Below, in pieces: positions 14,831 to 20,447 of a stretch of DNA of 64,000 nt; position 1 is the first letter of the stretch; each line of letters starts with the position of its first letter. The notes under the pieces were generated by a model. The model ran no database searches, was not told where the DNA came from, and saw only the letters and a program-made list of their open reading frames with translations. This DNA is from Escherichia coli (GTDB lineage Bacteria; Pseudomonadota; Gammaproteobacteria; Enterobacterales; Enterobacteriaceae). The DNA lies in NCBI RefSeq assembly GCF_003334785.1, contig NZ_QOWV01000001.1; one strand, given 5' to 3'. Position numbers and translations under genes: made by a program.

Positions 14831-14838
14831 GATTTCAT
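14831..14838 (-). other. treA: Displaced native treA start (ATG AAA TC), now separated from the gene body by the IS
   Basis: Plus-strand gatttcat is the revcomp of atgaaatc; together with the left flank it restores ATG AAA TCC CCC GCA CCT (MKSPAP). Confidence 0.6.
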
Positions 14839-15157
14839 CAATCATTCTCCTTTGGCGAAACCGAATAAAACGGTATTCAAGTATCAGAAAACCTTAGTTC
14901 AGGATCGCACTAGCTGCATGATCGAAATCTCATTCTGCGAACTGTCAGGCATTTTAGAAAAGGGAATTAAAGGGATAAATAACGGCGAAATAGAGTGATC
15001 AAATAACGTCTGTTTATTAGCCAGCCAGCGGCGTTGGGTTCGTGATTAGCGAAGAAAAATCATCATAAATTGGTGAAAAATATAACAGGTAGTTAAAAAC
15101 CATTAGTGCTGAGTAAATTGCCGGATGACATCAGAACGATGCCATCCGAACAGTGGC

Positions 15158-16576
15158 TTAACCCTGACGGTTGAAACGTTGCGTTTTAACGTCCAGCGTT
15201 AGCGTTTCTTCTGGTTGTATCGCATACAGTTTCTCACCCTGCTGGCAAATCCAGCCAATCCCCAGTTCACGGGCGATTAGGGCGCTGTGGGATACCGGAC
15301 TTCCGGCGCTAAGGCAGATACCTTTTACAACCGCCGGATCCAGTTGCAGTACTGTGGAAGGATAAATGTTCTCCGCCAGTAGAATAGTTGGCGAGTTAAA
15401 CTGCGGGAGTTCTTCTTTCGTTTGGGTCAGGTGGACCAGGGTGCGATGCAGAAGATCGTCCACATCAATATAGCGAGCTTGTAGATATTCATCATCCAGT
15501 TGCTGGTATTGCTGGCTAAGTTCTTTAAGAACTTGCTGCCAGGCATATTCTGCCGTGCAATGTTCATGCTGAAGGAGTTCGCTTGCCGCCGCCAGCAGTT
15601 CCGGATCATCTAACAGTGTATGGTGACCAGAAAAGATTGCGGCAATATCGTCAAGCCCGCTGGCTTCTGCTTTCGCTGTTAACGTCATCAGATCTAATAA
15701 CGTGAAGTCAATAGCCTGGCGTAATCGATCTTGTTCTTCTTCCACGGTCAGGGTTGATTTTGCCTGTACCGTACATAAAACTGGTTGATAATAAAAGGCT
15801 TTACCCGAAACAGGCGGAACGGGACGCAGAGTAGGTGGAGCGACTTCCTCCGTTTCACCAAAGTTATCTTCAGCCAGCTGACGGAAAGCGATCAGTGCCT
15901 CTTCAGCTTCTGGCCCTTTCGCAATCAGGCGCAGCGTATCGTTATAGCGAACTTGTAGTAACGCAATCTGGTTAATACTCTCTGGTGTGACGCATTTGCC
16001 GTTTTTTTCCAGCAACATATCGGCATTAAATGTCGATAAGGTATAAACCAGCCGGGAGGCCGGACGTACATGCAGGCCGTTACGGTTTTTTATGACCACC
16101 GCCAGAGAACGGGCTTCTTCATCGTACGCAGGACATGTGTCAGAGATTTCAGTGTCGGAGGACGGTAAACCCAGTTGTTCACGTTTGGCTTCCAGCGCAT
16201 GCATGGCGTCAAAGATAACTTTGTCGATATCCGCCCCCGAGGCCGCGCTGACCGTTGCTGCCAGTGTACCTTCGACCAACGGCGCAGCACACAAACGTAC
16301 TTTTGCGGCGATCTCGGGAGCCAGCAATTCCAGCGCAGTTTCAGCACTCAATAATGCGCTACCCATATCCATCATGACCAGCACATGGTCGGCATCAGCA
16401 ACAGATTCGATGGCCTCCATCACTTTGACGGCATCGGTACCAATGGGATTTTGTGGATCGTCAATTCCCGCGGCAATGGCGATTTTACAACTATCACTCA
16501 TTAACATCTGACGGGCTAATTCACCGACACCTTCTCCCAGTCGGCTGCTATGTGAAACTATGACCAGGTTTACCAT
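15158..16576 (-). CDS. dhaM: Dihydroxyacetone kinase phosphotransferase subunit DhaM (EIIA-HPr-EI-like fusion)
   Basis: ORF 15158..16582; likely start MVNLVIVSHSS at 16576. Confidence 0.85.
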   Translation of the reverse strand: MVNLVIVSHSSRLGEGVGELARQMLMSDSCKIAIAAGIDDPQNPIGTDAVKVMEAIESVADADHVLVMMDMGSALLSAETALELLAPEIAAKVRLCAAPLVEGTLAATVSAASGADIDKVIFDAMHALEAKREQLGLPSSDTEISDTCPAYDEEARSLAVVIKNRNGLHVRPASRLVYTLSTFNADMLLEKNGKCVTPESINQIALLQVRYNDTLRLIAKGPEAEEALIAFRQLAEDNFGETEEVAPPTLRPVPPVSGKAFYYQPVLCTVQAKSTLTVEEEQDRLRQAIDFTLLDLMTLTAKAEASGLDDIAAIFSGHHTLLDDPELLAAASELLQHEHCTAEYAWQQVLKELSQQYQQLDDEYLQARYIDVDDLLHRTLVHLTQTKEELPQFNSPTILLAENIYPSTVLQLDPAVVKGICLSAGSPVSHSALIARELGIGWICQQGEKLYAIQPEETLTLDVKTQRFNRQG

Positions 16577-16586
16577 CACCAATTCC

Positions 16587-17229: not shown

Positions 17230-18300
17230 TTATTTACCCCAGTTAAGGGCCGGGGTGTGAACCGGGGCGTCCCAGAGTGCCAGCGTTTCGTCATCAACTT
17301 TCAGTAAGGTGATTGAGAAACCGGTCATATCCAGTGAGGTGCAGTACGCGCCAATTAAATTACGTTCGATAGTCAATCCCGCTTGCTGGCAACGTGTGGT
17401 CAGGCGGTTATAGACGCCGTACAGCTCAGAAAGCGGAGTTGCGCCAAGATTGTTAACCAGCGCAATCACCCGATCGCCAGACTGGAGCGGTTGTTTGGTT
17501 TGTTGTTCTTCCTGCCAACTGCCTTGTTGATAATCCCAGAAACGCAAAGTGCGATGGTATGAGCCATTTACCAGCAGGGTGTCGAACATTTCATCGACGG
17601 TTTGATCAAGGGAAGAGAAGGGGCGGCGGTCAATACCCGGCTCACCATGAATGCCGACGCCAAACTCCATCTCATTATCCGCCAGGGTAAAAGAAGGTTT
17701 GCCCGCGGCAGGAACGGTACAGGCACCGAGAGCGATACCTATTGAGTGGCCTTGATTATTCAGCTTACGCCCCAGTTCCGCACAGGCGTCCAGTGAGTCG
17801 CCACGCTCCGCCGCTGCGCCTACGAGTTTTTCAATTAATACGGTGTTGGCAACGCCGCGTCGCCCGGCAGTATAAAGACTGTCTTTTACCGCAACGTCGT
17901 CATCAATGACCACAGTGGTCACTTTTACGCCGCTATCGTGCAGTAACTCGGTCGCTGTTTCAAAGTTAAGAATATCGCCGGTGTAATTTTTGATAATCAA
18001 CAGTACACCTTCGCCGCCATCAACTTGCATGGCGCATTCAAAGATTTTATCGGGCGTCGGTGAGGTGAAAATTTCGCCCGGACAGGCCCCCGAAAGCATC
18101 CCCTGACCGATATAACCACAGTGCATCGGCTCGTGTCCGCTGCCGCCACCCGACAGCAGGGCGACTTTTCCTTCAACAGGGGCATCAGCTCGGGTGACAT
18201 ACACCGGATCCTGATGCAGTGTCAGCGATGGATGCGCTTTCGCCAGTCCTGCCAGTTGTTCGTCCAGTACGTCTTGCACATCATTGATCAATTTTTTCAT
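17230..18300 (-). CDS. dhaK: Dihydroxyacetone kinase DHA-binding subunit DhaK
   Basis: ORF 17230..18330; likely start MKKLINDVQD at 18300 (356 aa). Confidence 0.85.
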   Translation of the reverse strand: MKKLINDVQDVLDEQLAGLAKAHPSLTLHQDPVYVTRADAPVEGKVALLSGGGSGHEPMHCGYIGQGMLSGACPGEIFTSPTPDKIFECAMQVDGGEGVLLIIKNYTGDILNFETATELLHDSGVKVTTVVIDDDVAVKDSLYTAGRRGVANTVLIEKLVGAAAERGDSLDACAELGRKLNNQGHSIGIALGACTVPAAGKPSFTLADNEMEFGVGIHGEPGIDRRPFSSLDQTVDEMFDTLLVNGSYHRTLRFWDYQQGSWQEEQQTKQPLQSGDRVIALVNNLGATPLSELYGVYNRLTTRCQQAGLTIERNLIGAYCTSLDMTGFSITLLKVDDETLALWDAPVHTPALNWGK

Positions 18301-18417
18301 TATTTTGCTCCAGCAATTACGGTAGGGCATGGATGATGTTCAACGACACGGCGACCACTGACTGCCGATGAATCCATTGTGCATCAGGCAAGGGAAAAGA
18401 AAATTAGCCCAAATTAT

Positions 18418-18463
18418 GTTTCATAGTGAAACATATGCTTTAATGAATGTTCCATATTGAAAC
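18418..18463. promoter_or_regulatory. Two related 15-bp dyads in the dhaK-dhaR divergent region (candidate DhaR operator)
   Basis: gtttcaTAGtgaaac (18418..18432, perfect palindrome) and gttccaTATtgaaac (18449..18463), centres 31 bp apart. Confidence 0.4.
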
Positions 18464-18518
18464 TTTTACGTGTATTAATACTTAAAATTGCGAGCCGGAA
18501 CACCTTTTGTCATAAGGG

Positions 18519-20447
18519 ATGCGGGATATGAGTGGCGCTTTTAACAACGATGGTCGGGGCATATCTCCCTTAATTGCAACCTCCTGGGAGCGATGCAATA
18601 AGCTGATGAAACGGGAGACATGGAACGTACCACATCAGGCCCAGGGCGTGACATTTGCTTCTATTTATCGGCGTAAGAAAGCGATGCTGACGCTCGGGCA
18701 GGCTGCGCTGGAAGATGCCTGGGAATATATGGCACCGCGAGAGTGTGCGCTGTTTATCCTCGATGAAACCGCCTGCATTCTCAGCCGTAATGGCGATCCG
18801 CAAACCTTGCAGCAGCTAAGTGCACTGGGATTCAATGACGGCACGTATTGCGCCGAGGGAATTATTGGTACTTGTGCGCTATCGTTAGCGGCTATCTCTG
18901 GTCAGGCCGTGAAAACGATGGCCGATCAACATTTCAAACAGGTACTCTGGAACTGGGCCTTTTGTGCAACGCCGTTGTTTGACAGCAAGGGCCGATTGAC
19001 GGGAACAATAGCGCTGGCGTGTCCGGTTGAGCAAACTACCGCAGCTGATTTGCCGTTGACGTTGGCAATCGCCCGCGAGGTCGGAAATTTACTGCTGACG
19101 GACAGTTTGCTCGCTGAAACTAACCGTCATTTAAATCAACTTAATGCCCTGTTAGAAAGTATGGATGATGGCGTGATTAGCTGGGACGAGCAGGGTAATT
19201 TGCAATTTATTAATGCCCAGGCGGCGCGGGTCTTGCGCCTTGACGCGACGGCAAGTCAGGGACGGGCAATCACTGAACTCTTAACGTTACCCGCCGTATT
19301 GCAACAAGCAATAAAACAGGCACATCCGCTCAAACACGTAGAAGCAACCTTTGAAAGCCAGCACCAGTTTATTGATGCGGTGATAACCCTTAAACCGATA
19401 ATAGAAACGCAGGGAACCAGCTTTATTTTGTTGCTCCATCCTGTGGAACAGATGCGGCAGTTGATGACCAGTCAATTAGGAAAAGTCAGCCATACCTTCG
19501 CTCATATGCCACAGGACGATCCGCAAACCCGCCGCTTGATTCATTTTGGTCGCCAGGCGGCGCGCAGTAGCTTTCCTGTCCTGCTTTGTGGAGAAGAGGG
19601 CGTGGGCAAGGCACTGCTAAGTCAGGCAATTCATAATGAAAGCGAGCGTGCTGCAGGTCCTTATATCGCCGTCAATTGTGAGTTATATGGTGATGCTGCG
19701 CTGGCGGAAGAATTTATTGGTGGCGATCGCACGGACAATGAAAATGGCCGTCTGAGTCGGCTGGAACTGGCACACGGCGGCACGCTGTTTCTTGAAAAGA
19801 TTGAATATCTGGCGGTGGAGTTACAGTCTGCTTTGCTTCAGGTTATCAAGCAGGGGGTTATCACGCGACTGGATGCGCGGCGTTTAATACCAATTGATGT
19901 CAAAGTGATTGCAACAACGACCGCGGACCTCGCAATGCTGGTGGAACAAAATCGTTTTAGTCGCCAGCTGTATTACGCGCTGCATGCATTTGAAATTACC
20001 ATCCCGCCTCTGCGTATGCGGCGTGGCAGCATTCCGGCGCTGGTGAATAACAAATTACGCAGTCTTGAAAAACGCTTCTCTACGCGGCTGAAAATTGATG
20101 ACGATGCCCTCGCTCGCCTGGTTTCTTGTGCATGGCCAGGCAACGATTTTGAACTTTACAGCGTCATCGAGAATCTTGCTCTGAGTAGTGATAACGGGCG
20201 CATTCGCGTCAGTGATTTGCCGGAACATCTGTTTACCGAGCAGGCGACAGATGATGTCAGCGCCACCCGCCTTTCCACCAGTCTGTCATTTGCGGAAGTT
20301 GAAAAAGAGGCAATTATTAACGCAGCCCAGGTCACAGGCGGTCGCATTCAGGAAATGTCGGCTTTACTTGGGATCGGCCGCACTACGCTGTGGCGGAAAA
20401 TGAAGCAACATGGCATTGATGCAGGGCAGTTTAAGCGCCGGGTATGA
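18519..20447 (+). CDS. dhaR: Sigma-54-type (AAA+) transcriptional activator of the dha operon
   Basis: 642-aa ORF with GAF/PAS-like N-terminus, AAA+ core and C-terminal HTH (IGRTTLWRKM); the true start may be the Met at 18528. Confidence 0.85.
   Translation: MRDMSGAFNNDGRGISPLIATSWERCNKLMKRETWNVPHQAQGVTFASIYRRKKAMLTLGQAALEDAWEYMAPRECALFILDETACILSRNGDPQTLQQLSALGFNDGTYCAEGIIGTCALSLAAISGQAVKTMADQHFKQVLWNWAFCATPLFDSKGRLTGTIALACPVEQTTAADLPLTLAIAREVGNLLLTDSLLAETNRHLNQLNALLESMDDGVISWDEQGNLQFINAQAARVLRLDATASQGRAITELLTLPAVLQQAIKQAHPLKHVEATFESQHQFIDAVITLKPIIETQGTSFILLLHPVEQMRQLMTSQLGKVSHTFAHMPQDDPQTRRLIHFGRQAARSSFPVLLCGEEGVGKALLSQAIHNESERAAGPYIAVNCELYGDAALAEEFIGGDRTDNENGRLSRLELAHGGTLFLEKIEYLAVELQSALLQVIKQGVITRLDARRLIPIDVKVIATTTADLAMLVEQNRFSRQLYYALHAFEITIPPLRMRRGSIPALVNNKLRSLEKRFSTRLKIDDDALARLVSCAWPGNDFELYSVIENLALSSDNGRIRVSDLPEHLFTEQATDDVSATRLSTSLSFAEVEKEAIINAAQVTGGRIQEMSALLGIGRTTLWRKMKQHGIDAGQFKRRV

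What the first reader, a model, noticed from the sequence alone, without database searches (positions are those of the whole stretch)
18418..18463. Paired 15-bp dyads in the dhaK-dhaR divergent region
A perfect palindrome gtttcaTAGtgaaac and a close relative gttccaTATtgaaac lie 31 bp apart between the divergent dhaK and dhaR starts. That is the arrangement expected for binding of a dimeric or oligomeric enhancer-binding protein such as DhaR.
Basis: inference. Interest (0 to 1): 0.3.

Follow-up and report, generated by a model that had tools for sequence, protein, structure and literature searches.

The report
DhaR operator: paired dyads at dhaK
The two 15-bp palindromes between the E. coli dhaK and dhaR genes are real, and they are very probably where the regulator DhaR binds to switch on dihydroxyacetone kinase genes and damp its own gene: an ordinary operator of a regulatory circuit that is already known.

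Summary
GTTTCATAGTGAAAC (18418-18432) and GTTCCATATTGAAAC (18449-18463) lie 31 bp apart in the 227-bp spacer between dhaK (ATG 18300, minus strand) and dhaR (ATG 18528, plus strand). The spacer is identical to E. coli K-12.

The motif GTTYCAwwwTGRAAC occurs as pairs spaced 31-33 bp apart in dha promoter regions of every DhaR-encoding locus examined. These were Escherichia, Citrobacter, Klebsiella, Pantoea, Serratia, Aeromonas, Photobacterium and the alphaproteobacterium Martelella. I counted 18 pairs in 224 kb and none in 100 shuffles.

The pairs follow the dha promoters, not the dhaR gene. The C. freundii dha regulon carries five pairs, including one in the dhaB/dhaT spacer.

A -10-like hexamer starts exactly 36 nt after the promoter-proximal dyad in 7 of 8 lineages. 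That places the E. coli dyads at about -56 and -87 of a predicted sigma-70 dhaK promoter with a poor -35. Dyad 2 overlaps the -35 region of the predicted dhaR promoter, which fits autorepression.

DhaR orthologs lack the GAFTGA motif, and the spacer has no sigma-54 promoter.

DhaR control of dhaKLM and dhaR is established, so novelty is low. I could not read the primary paper (Bächler 2005) to check whether these exact sites were mapped. No binding was tested.

The parts
18418..18432 (.). Dyad 1, GTTTCATAGTGAAAC. It is the dyad nearer dhaK and the predicted DhaR dimer site, centred about -56 from the predicted dhaK start site and about -70 from the predicted dhaR start site.
   Evidence: It is conserved in the Escherichia and Citrobacter alignment and matches the 32-site consensus GTTYCAwwwTGRAAC.
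18433..18448 (.). A 16-bp AT-rich spacer between the dyads. It puts the dyad centres 31 bp apart, about three helical turns, so both face the same side of the DNA.
   Evidence: Spacing is 31-33 bp in all 18 pairs.
18449..18463 (.). Dyad 2, GTTCCATATTGAAAC. It is the dyad nearer dhaR, centred about -87 from the predicted dhaK start site. It overlaps the -35 region of the predicted dhaR promoter.
   Evidence: Other Escherichia and Citrobacter carry GTTCCATAACGGAAC at the same position.
18399..18404 (-). ATTTTC, a T-rich hexamer at the -35 position of the predicted dhaK promoter and a poor match to TTGACA. It lies 13 nt after dyad 1.
   Evidence: ATTTTn sits at the same offset in the dhaK promoters of E. 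coli, C. amalonaticus, Pantoea, C. freundii and Aeromonas, and in the C. freundii gldA and dhaD promoters. This is an inference.
18376..18381 (-). CACAAT, the predicted -10 hexamer of the DhaR-dependent dhaK promoter. It begins 36 nt after dyad 1. The predicted start site is A at 18369 (K-12 1,250,907).
   Evidence: An nAnAnT hexamer sits at the same 36-nt offset in 7 of 8 lineages, followed after 6 nt by a conserved ATCG. It is invariant between Escherichia and Citrobacter. It has not been mapped experimentally here.
18483..18488 (+). TAAAAT, the predicted -10 hexamer of the dhaR promoter, with a start site near 18495.
   Evidence: 5/6 match. Other Escherichia carry TAAATT and Citrobacter CAAAAT at this position. 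This is an inference.
17230..18300 (-). dhaK coding sequence, the first gene of dhaKLM and the activated target.
   Evidence: K-12 annotation.
18528..20447 (+). dhaR coding sequence, encoding the proposed binding protein. It has GAF-PAS, AAA+ and HTH_8 domains and no GAFTGA motif.

Best explanation
The two dyads form the DhaR operator shared by the divergent dhaKLM and dhaR promoters.

Each 15-bp dyad (consensus GTTYCAwwwTGRAAC) is proposed to bind one DhaR dimer through its C-terminal Fis/NtrC-type helix-turn-helix. The two dimers sit three helical turns apart on the same face of the DNA and can join into a higher-order complex.

On the dhaK side, the dyads lie at about -56 and -87 from a sigma-70 promoter. 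That promoter has a recognisable -10 (CACAAT) but ATTTTC in place of a -35, so it needs the activator. When dihydroxyacetone is present, DhaL-ADP replaces DhaK on the DhaR sensor domain and the bound DhaR turns transcription on.

On the dhaR side, dyad 2 covers the -35 region of the predicted dhaR promoter, so the same bound protein represses its own gene.

Shown here by computation:
- the dyads exist;
- they recur as pairs with fixed spacing wherever DhaR occurs;
- they sit at a fixed distance from a -10-like hexamer;
- DhaR orthologs lack GAFTGA and the Walker B DE pair;
- the spacer has no sigma-54 promoter.

Inferred: DhaR is the protein that binds, one dimer occupies each dyad, the start sites are where I predict them, and activation and repression work as described.

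Taken from the literature: sigma-70 dependence and the opposing roles of DhaK and DhaL (PMC10084136 and PMC5890353, both citing Bächler 2005). Autorepression comes from my recollection of the abstract of Bächler 2005.
For: - Only these two sites in the window match the motif.
- Both dyads and their 31-bp spacing are kept in four other Escherichia lineages and three Citrobacter lineages (DhaR 71-73% identical), while much of the surrounding spacer diverges.
- Pantoea has one pair upstream of dhaK and a second upstream of gldA-dhaR.
- Martelella alba (DhaR 47% identical) has a pair upstream of dhaK, with dhaR 3 kb away and convergent.
- The C. freundii plasmid dha regulon has five pairs, all in promoter spacers: one upstream of dhaK, one upstream of each of the two glycerol dehydrogenase genes, one in the gap between those two genes, and one in the dhaB/dhaT spacer.
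- Aeromonas (41%), Serratia (54%), Photobacterium (34%, NF008485 at 768 bits) and K. aerogenes all carry pairs next to dha genes.
- There are 18 pairs against 0 in 100 shuffles.
- The consensus from 32 sites is GTTYCAwwwTGRAAC.
- A -10-like hexamer sits at a fixed 36-nt offset in 7 of 8 lineages.
- The helix-turn-helix IGRTTLWRK is invariant in DhaR orthologs. GAFTGA is absent, and Walker B reads E[KQNH] instead of DE.
- The spacer contains no GG-N10-GC.
- The C-terminal domain is HTH_8 and resembles Fis and NtrC DNA-binding domains.
- Genuine sigma-54 activators with the same recognition helix RTTLWRKMKQHG (one has RSTLWRKMKQHG) carry the same dyad upstream of -24/-12-like promoters.
Against: - No binding or expression data were produced here.
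- The primary papers (Bächler 2005, Shi 2014, Daniel 1995) are not in the held library. I therefore could not check the mapped start sites or any footprint.
- The promoter positions are predictions. The consensus scan found no sigma-70 promoter in the spacer. The one TSS table I could search lists only a 6-read start inside dhaR.
- ChIP-exo places two LysR-type regulators (YgfI/DhfA and YneJ/PtrR) at the dhaK promoter, and dyad 1 contains a T-N11-A box.
- One Citrobacter lineage (L004) has a one-base deletion in dyad 1.
- Many loci are related enterobacteria, so the 18 pairs are not 18 independent events.
Confidence: 0.86

Rival explanations
1. The dyads are the recognition and activation sites of a LysR-type regulator, YgfI/DhfA or YneJ/PtrR. 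Such regulators typically bind two sites about 30 bp apart near -65 and -35.
For: ChIP-exo detected DhfA and PtrR at the dhaK promoter, and a dhfA deletion lowers dhaK expression (log2 -1.4) (PMC9068703). Dyad 1 contains T-N11-A (TTTCATAGTGAAA). The 31-bp spacing resembles a LysR-type two-site layout.
Against: - The DhfA site predicted by those authors is GATGCACAATGGATTC, at window 18370-18385, not the dyads.
- The PtrR motif is TTC-N9-GAA, and the authors found no match at dhaK.
- The dyad pairs recur next to dha genes in Vibrionales, Aeromonadales and an alphaproteobacterium, and five times in a plasmid-borne dha regulon. The shared regulator gene in all of these is dhaR, not a LysR-type gene. 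Only Martelella has a LysR-type gene beside dhaR.
Confidence: 0.05
2. The dyads are bound mainly by another Fis/NtrC-type protein, either Fis itself or NtrC, rather than DhaR.
For: NtrC genomic SELEX gave a peak in the dhaK/dhaR spacer (PMC8743547). The NtrC box TGCACCAnnnTGGTGCA shares the frame GnnYCAnnnTGRnnC with the dyads.
Against: - The positions most conserved in the dyads (T2 T3 and A13 A14) differ from the most conserved NtrC positions (C2 A3 and T13 G14). In Fis sites those positions are unconstrained.
- The motif tracks dha genes and DhaR, not nitrogen genes.
- The SELEX peak centre, at about window 18395, lies closer to a TGCACAA half-site at 18377-18383.
Confidence: 0.04
3. The dyads are Cra (FruR) operators, because the half-site TGAAAC is the Cra half-site and the operon feeds glycolysis.
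For: From memory, the Cra consensus is GCTGAAnCGnTTCAGC. The hexamers TGAAAC and GTTTCA are present in the dyads.
Against: In Cra sites the halves abut as TGAAnC-GnTTCA. Here they are in the opposite order, GTTTCA-N3-TGAAAC, so a LacI-family dimer could not read them in the same way. The motif co-occurs with DhaR in taxa and on plasmids, independent of Cra.
Confidence: 0.01
4. The palindromes arose by chance in AT-rich intergenic DNA and have no function.
For: Within the window alone the excess is modest. Five of 100 shuffles give as many strand-hits.
Against: There are 18 pairs with 31-33 bp spacing in dha promoters across three gammaproteobacterial orders (Enterobacterales, Aeromonadales, Vibrionales) and one alphaproteobacterium, against none in shuffles. 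The dyads are conserved islands in the Escherichia-Citrobacter alignment.
Confidence: 0.01

Closest known systems
NtrC enhancer at glnAp2 (two NtrC dyads, as I recall centred at -140 and -108, 32 bp apart)
   Same: Both are pairs of dyads about three helical turns apart, read by a Fis-type helix-turn-helix at the C-terminus of an AAA+ enhancer-binding-protein scaffold. The NtrC box TGCACCAnnnTGGTGCA (PMC8743547) and the DhaR dyad share the frame GnnYCAnnnTGRnnC.
   Different: The specificity positions differ: TT/AA in the DhaR dyad and CA/TG in the NtrC box. There is no -24/-12 promoter and no GAFTGA. The dyads are predicted at -56 and -87 of a sigma-70 promoter, not at enhancer distance. One dyad also doubles as a repressor site for the divergent gene.
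TyrR and its TyrR boxes (an enhancer-binding-protein homolog that regulates sigma-70 promoters)
   Same: Both have an AAA+ core that has lost contact with sigma-54. Both bind paired palindromic boxes close to or overlapping sigma-70 promoters. The same protein activates some promoters and represses others according to box position. PMC8743547 groups DhaR with the TyrR family.
   Different: The box sequence differs (TGTAAA-N6-TTTACA, from memory). TyrR is controlled by small-molecule ligands, whereas DhaR is controlled by protein partners DhaK and DhaL. The fixed pair spacing of 31-33 bp seen here is not a TyrR feature.
Fis binding sites (15-bp core)
   Same: Both are 15 bp long with G and C at the outer positions, Y/R at plus and minus 4, and an AT-rich centre. 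The DhaR C-terminus matches Fis and NtrC DNA-binding domains.
   Different: The dyads have strong extra conservation at T2, T3, C5 and G11, A13, A14. They occur only in dha promoters.

Membership tests
DhaR operator (cis-element of the DhaR regulon) | Lies in the control region of genes known to be regulated by DhaR | tested here: met
   It lies in the dhaK-dhaR spacer. DhaR is reported to control dhaKLM (PMC6643234, PMC5890353). A regulon of 2 operons is listed in PMC10647483.
DhaR operator (cis-element of the DhaR regulon) | The motif co-occurs with DhaR orthologs and dha genes across taxa, whatever the gene order | tested here: met
   Every DhaR locus examined has at least one pair next to dha genes, including loci where dhaR is convergent.
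DhaR operator (cis-element of the DhaR regulon) | Direct, sequence-specific binding by DhaR protein | not testable with these tools
   This needs EMSA, footprinting or ChIP. No DhaR DNA-binding-domain or DNA complex has been solved; only residues 1-318 are in the PDB.
DhaR operator (cis-element of the DhaR regulon) | Mutating the site abolishes DhaR-dependent regulation | not testable with these tools
   A genetic experiment is required.
Enhancer (upstream activating sequence) of a sigma-54-dependent activator | Two or more dyad sites in helical phase, bound by an activator with an HTH_8 domain | tested here: met
   Spacing is 31-33 bp. PF02954 is present in DhaR, and the C-terminus resembles Fis and NtrC.
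Enhancer (upstream activating sequence) of a sigma-54-dependent activator | A -24/-12 (GG-N10-GC) promoter lies downstream | tested here: not met
   There is no GG-N10-GC on either strand of 18301-18527.
Enhancer (upstream activating sequence) of a sigma-54-dependent activator | The activator carries the GAFTGA loop and a Walker B DE pair | tested here: not met
   All eight DhaR orthologs lack GAFTGA and have E[KQNH] in place of DE. The literature agrees (PMC10084136).
Enhancer (upstream activating sequence) of a sigma-54-dependent activator | Sites lie roughly 80-150 bp upstream of the start site and act through DNA looping | tested here: inconclusive
   The predicted centres are -56 and -87, derived from a predicted rather than a mapped start site.
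LysR-type regulator binding sites (recognition plus activation site) | T-N11-A dyad | tested here: met
   TTTCATAGTGAAA lies within dyad 1. This is a weak criterion, met by many AT-rich palindromes.
LysR-type regulator binding sites (recognition plus activation site) | The motif travels with the LysR-type regulator gene or its experimentally derived motif | tested here: not met
   The published DhfA and PtrR motifs differ from the dyads. The dha loci that carry pairs share dhaR, not a LysR-type gene.
Cra/FruR operator | Abutting half-sites TGAAnC-GnTTCA | tested here: not met
   The halves are in the reverse order with a 3-bp centre.

The most novel reading that the evidence does not exclude
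The dyad pair may be one instance of a rigid, widely conserved promoter design that has not been described. The design is two GTTYCAwwwTGRAAC dyads 31-33 bp apart, then 13 nt, an ATTTTn element at the -35 position, 17 nt, a -10 hexamer, and a start at ATCG. Through it, an enhancer-binding protein that lost its sigma-54 contact drives sigma-70 promoters.

The same design appears in all five promoter-region spacers of the Citrobacter dha regulon, including the dhaB/dhaT spacer of the 1,3-propanediol pathway; the Klebsiella locus examined shows it upstream of dhaK and dhaD. The same dyad also serves as the upstream site of genuine GAFTGA-bearing sigma-54 activators in Desulfobacterota. That would mean the DNA-recognition module predates the switch of sigma factor.
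Probability: 0.3. Interest if true: 0.4.

Novelty: already known. Interest (0 to 1): 0.25.

Why it matters
DhaR is the textbook case of a metabolic enzyme (DhaK/DhaL) controlling a transcription factor, and of an enhancer-binding-protein homolog working with sigma-70. Pinning its operator to two defined dyads gives three things.

- A precise target for EMSA and mutagenesis.
- A motif that predicts DhaR regulons in other bacteria. That includes all promoters of the Citrobacter dha regulon (and the dhaK and dhaD promoters of the Klebsiella locus examined); this regulon is used for 1,3-propanediol production.
- A defined promoter geometry for asking how a sigma-54-type activator was rewired to sigma-70.

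For E. coli itself, the finding adds detail to a known circuit rather than revealing a new one.

Tried and rejected
1. Literature. Bächler 2005 (PMC545809, DOI and PMID), Shi 2014 and Daniel 1995 are not held. Full-text searches for the dyad sequences found nothing. Searches for DhaR with binding-site, inverted-repeat, biosensor or RegulonDB terms found no paper that gives an operator sequence. I therefore could not establish whether these exact sites were footprinted.

2. Start-site data. The Cappable-seq supplement is truncated before this locus. The Kim 2012 table lists only a 6-read start at old coordinate 1,250,379 on the minus strand. That is inside dhaR and is probably not the induced promoter. 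The ChIP-exo supplements of Gao 2018 are not held.

3. The consensus promoter scan found no sigma-70 promoter in the spacer. This fits activator dependence but gives no help in locating the promoter.

4. I tested whether E. coli gldA (the ptsA-fsaB-gldA operon) also carries a DhaR pair, as gldA does in Pantoea, Citrobacter, Serratia and Photobacterium. It has none, even allowing 2 mismatches.

5. A sigma-54 promoter in the spacer was rejected.

6. The DhfA site predicted in PMC9068703 is at 18370-18385 and is distinct from the dyads. It overlaps my predicted -10 and start site.

7. Among distant activators that share the helix TLWRKMKQHG, only 3 of 19 loci show the dyad in their flanks. That helix alone therefore does not predict the motif.

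8. E. albertii (L011) has lost the 5' part of dhaR and the spacer, so it is uninformative.

Full report
**What is there**

The window is E. coli chromosome. The 331 bp around the finding occur in 5384 of 5426 complete E. coli genomes. The dhaK-dhaR spacer is identical to K-12 MG1655 (near this locus, K-12 coordinate = window coordinate + 1,232,538).

NCBIfam identifies dhaM (15158-16582), dhaL and dhaK on the minus strand and dhaR on the plus strand. The profile matches and the K-12 annotation put the real starts at 18300 (dhaK) and 18528 (dhaR). The spacer is therefore 18301-18527, 227 bp.

GTTTCATAGTGAAAC lies at 18418-18432 and GTTCCATATTGAAAC at 18449-18463, 31 bp apart. They are the only matches to the pattern in 64 kb.

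**More than chance**

Within the window alone the statistics are weak. Related loci settle the question.

A scan of one genome per species with the DhaR protein returned Escherichia, Citrobacter, Pantoea and Martelella loci, plus distant enhancer-binding proteins. A tblastn search of plasmid records added the full dha regulon of C. freundii, and loci from K. aerogenes, Aeromonas caviae and Photobacterium. A Serratia contig came from the protein index.

In eleven non-redundant loci (224 kb) the pattern GTTYC-N5-GRAAC forms 18 pairs with start-to-start spacing of 31-33 bp. One hundred block shuffles gave no pair, and a mean of 0.81 exact single sites against 27 observed. Thirty-two sites give the consensus GTTYCAwwwTGRAAC. 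G1, T2, T3, A13, A14 and C15 are nearly invariant, and position 4 is C or T in equal numbers. Both E. coli dyads are therefore full consensus sites.

**Whose site it is**

The pairs follow dha promoters, not the dhaR gene.

| Organism | DhaR identity to E. coli | Where the pairs lie |
|---|---|---|
| Pantoea | 68% | One pair upstream of dhaK, a second upstream of gldA-dhaR |
| Serratia | 54% | Upstream of gldA-dhaKLM; dhaR convergent at the far end of the operon |
| Aeromonas | 41% | Upstream of dhaK; dhaR convergent at the far end of the operon |
| Martelella (alphaproteobacterium) | 47% | Upstream of dhaK; dhaR convergent at the far end of the operon |
| Photobacterium | 34% (still above the DhaR equivalog cut-off) | One pair in the dhaK-gldA spacer, one upstream of dhaR |
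| C. freundii plasmid regulon | 71% | Five pairs: upstream of dhaK, of each of two glycerol dehydrogenase genes, in a gap between those two genes, and in the dhaT/dhaB spacer |

In the C. freundii locus there are no exact sites anywhere else in 30 kb.

DhaR is the regulator these loci have in common. Its helix-turn-helix IGRTTLWRK is invariant from E. coli to Martelella.

Three genuine sigma-54 activators from Desulfobacterota metagenomes carry GAFTGA; two have the recognition helix RTTLWRKMKQHG and one RSTLWRKMKQHG. They have the same dyad just upstream of -24/-12-like promoters. This shows that this kind of domain reads this kind of site. However, 16 other loci with a similar helix showed no dyad in their flanks.

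**How it probably works**

Aligning the DNA downstream of the promoter-proximal dyad reveals a fixed layout:

- the dyad;
- 13 nt;
- ATTTTn;
- 17 nt;
- a hexamer of the form nAnAnT (CACAAT, GAGAAT, CAGAAT, TAGACT, TATAGT, TATGCT, TACAGT, TAAAGT);
- 6 nt;
- often ATCG.

The distance from the dyad end to the hexamer is exactly 36 nt in 7 of 8 lineages, and 35 nt in Photobacterium.

I read this as a sigma-70 promoter with a usable -10 and no real -35, which makes it dependent on the protein bound just upstream. In E. coli this puts the -10 at 18381-18376 on the minus strand, the start near 18369, and the dyad centres near -56 and -87.

No GG-N10-GC exists in the spacer. All DhaR orthologs lack GAFTGA and have E[KQNH] in place of the Walker B DE pair. 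This agrees with the published statement that DhaR acts at a sigma-70 promoter (PMC10084136).

Toward dhaR, the best conserved -10 candidate is TAAAAT at 18483-18488. That places dyad 2 over the -35 region. This fits the autorepression I recall from the abstract of Bächler 2005.

The signal logic is from the literature: DhaK holds DhaR off, and DhaL-ADP turns it on.

One dimer per dyad, and the same-face arrangement implied by three helical turns, are inferences from the symmetry, the spacing and the Fis/NtrC-type domain.

**Rivals**

Two LysR-type regulators give ChIP-exo signal at this promoter (PMC9068703), and a T-N11-A box can be read inside dyad 1. Their published motifs lie elsewhere or differ, and they cannot explain the distribution of the motif across taxa.

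NtrC gave a genomic SELEX peak in this spacer. Its box shares the frame GnnYCAnnnTGRnnC with the dyads, so weak cross-binding in vitro is possible. The specificity positions differ, however.

Cra half-sites are present but in the wrong order.

Chance is excluded.

**Comparison with what is known, and novelty**

The element works like the paired NtrC sites of glnAp2 in symmetry and spacing. It works like TyrR boxes in acting at sigma-70 promoters, both positively and negatively. It fails two defining tests for a sigma-54 enhancer: there is no -24/-12 promoter and no GAFTGA.

DhaR regulation of dhaKLM and dhaR is established and curated; a regulon of 2 operons is listed. I therefore file the finding as already known.

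The caveat is that none of the papers I could read gives the operator sequence, and the primary paper is not held. The cross-taxon motif, the fixed promoter geometry and the five-spacer coverage of the C. freundii dha regulon may or may not be in print.

**Verdict**

It would not surprise a specialist. Interest is 0.25.

Noticed in passing
window 18337-18369: A block (plus strand GTGTTCAACGMCACGGCGACCRCT..CTGCCGAT) is almost invariant between Escherichia and Citrobacter amalonaticus, although the rest of the spacer diverges. It lies in the predicted dhaK 5' leader, just downstream of the predicted start site. Its first bases (ATCG on the dhaK strand) recur at the same offset in other DhaR-type promoters. 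Its function is unknown; it could be a leader element or a site for another regulator.
   Followed up: partly
window 18370-18385: The DhfA (YgfI) site predicted in PMC9068703 Table S1, GATGCACAATGGATTC, overlaps my predicted dhaK -10 hexamer and abuts the predicted start site. That is an odd place for an activator. It also contains a TGCACAA half-site that may explain the NtrC genomic SELEX peak in this spacer (PMC8743547).
   Followed up: partly
window about 13470-14840 (transposase ORF 13547-14551, plus strand): An IS110-family element (ISSfl8-like) is inserted between treA and dhaM. Only 2 of 5426 complete E. coli genomes share the insertion at this place.
   Followed up: partly
window 54166-54724: A tandem array of 3.1 copies of a 178-bp unit, 97% matching. 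Each copy contains the palindrome GTTGCCTGCGGCAAC. By position and sequence it looks like the known 178-bp repeats downstream of tyrT. It surfaced only because it matches the loose pattern GTTNC-N5-GNAAC.
   Followed up: no
L012 4772-4910; L016 3011-3180; L019 4910-5090: Desulfobacterota sigma-54 activators that carry GAFTGA have GTTYC-N5-GRAAC dyads 70-150 bp upstream of -24/-12-like promoters. L016 and L019 have the DhaR-like recognition helix RTTLWRKMKQHG; L012 has RSTLWRKMKQHG. In L016 and L019 the two dyads are 80-81 bp apart and precede a universal-stress-protein-like gene. The DhaR dyad specificity therefore seems to be shared with genuine sigma-54 systems.
   Followed up: partly
L031 11785-12814: The C. 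freundii plasmid dha regulon contains two glycerol dehydrogenase genes. The gap between them holds a second copy of a dhaK-type DhaR promoter (pair at 12366/12397 with CAGAAT at the 36-nt offset) with no annotated gene behind it. It looks like a segmental duplication of the dhaK-dhaD control region.
   Followed up: no
L011 (Escherichia albertii NBRC 107761): Only the last 111 codons of dhaR remain. The dhaK-dhaR spacer and the dyads are absent, so the dha regulatory region seems to be deleted in this species representative.
   Followed up: no
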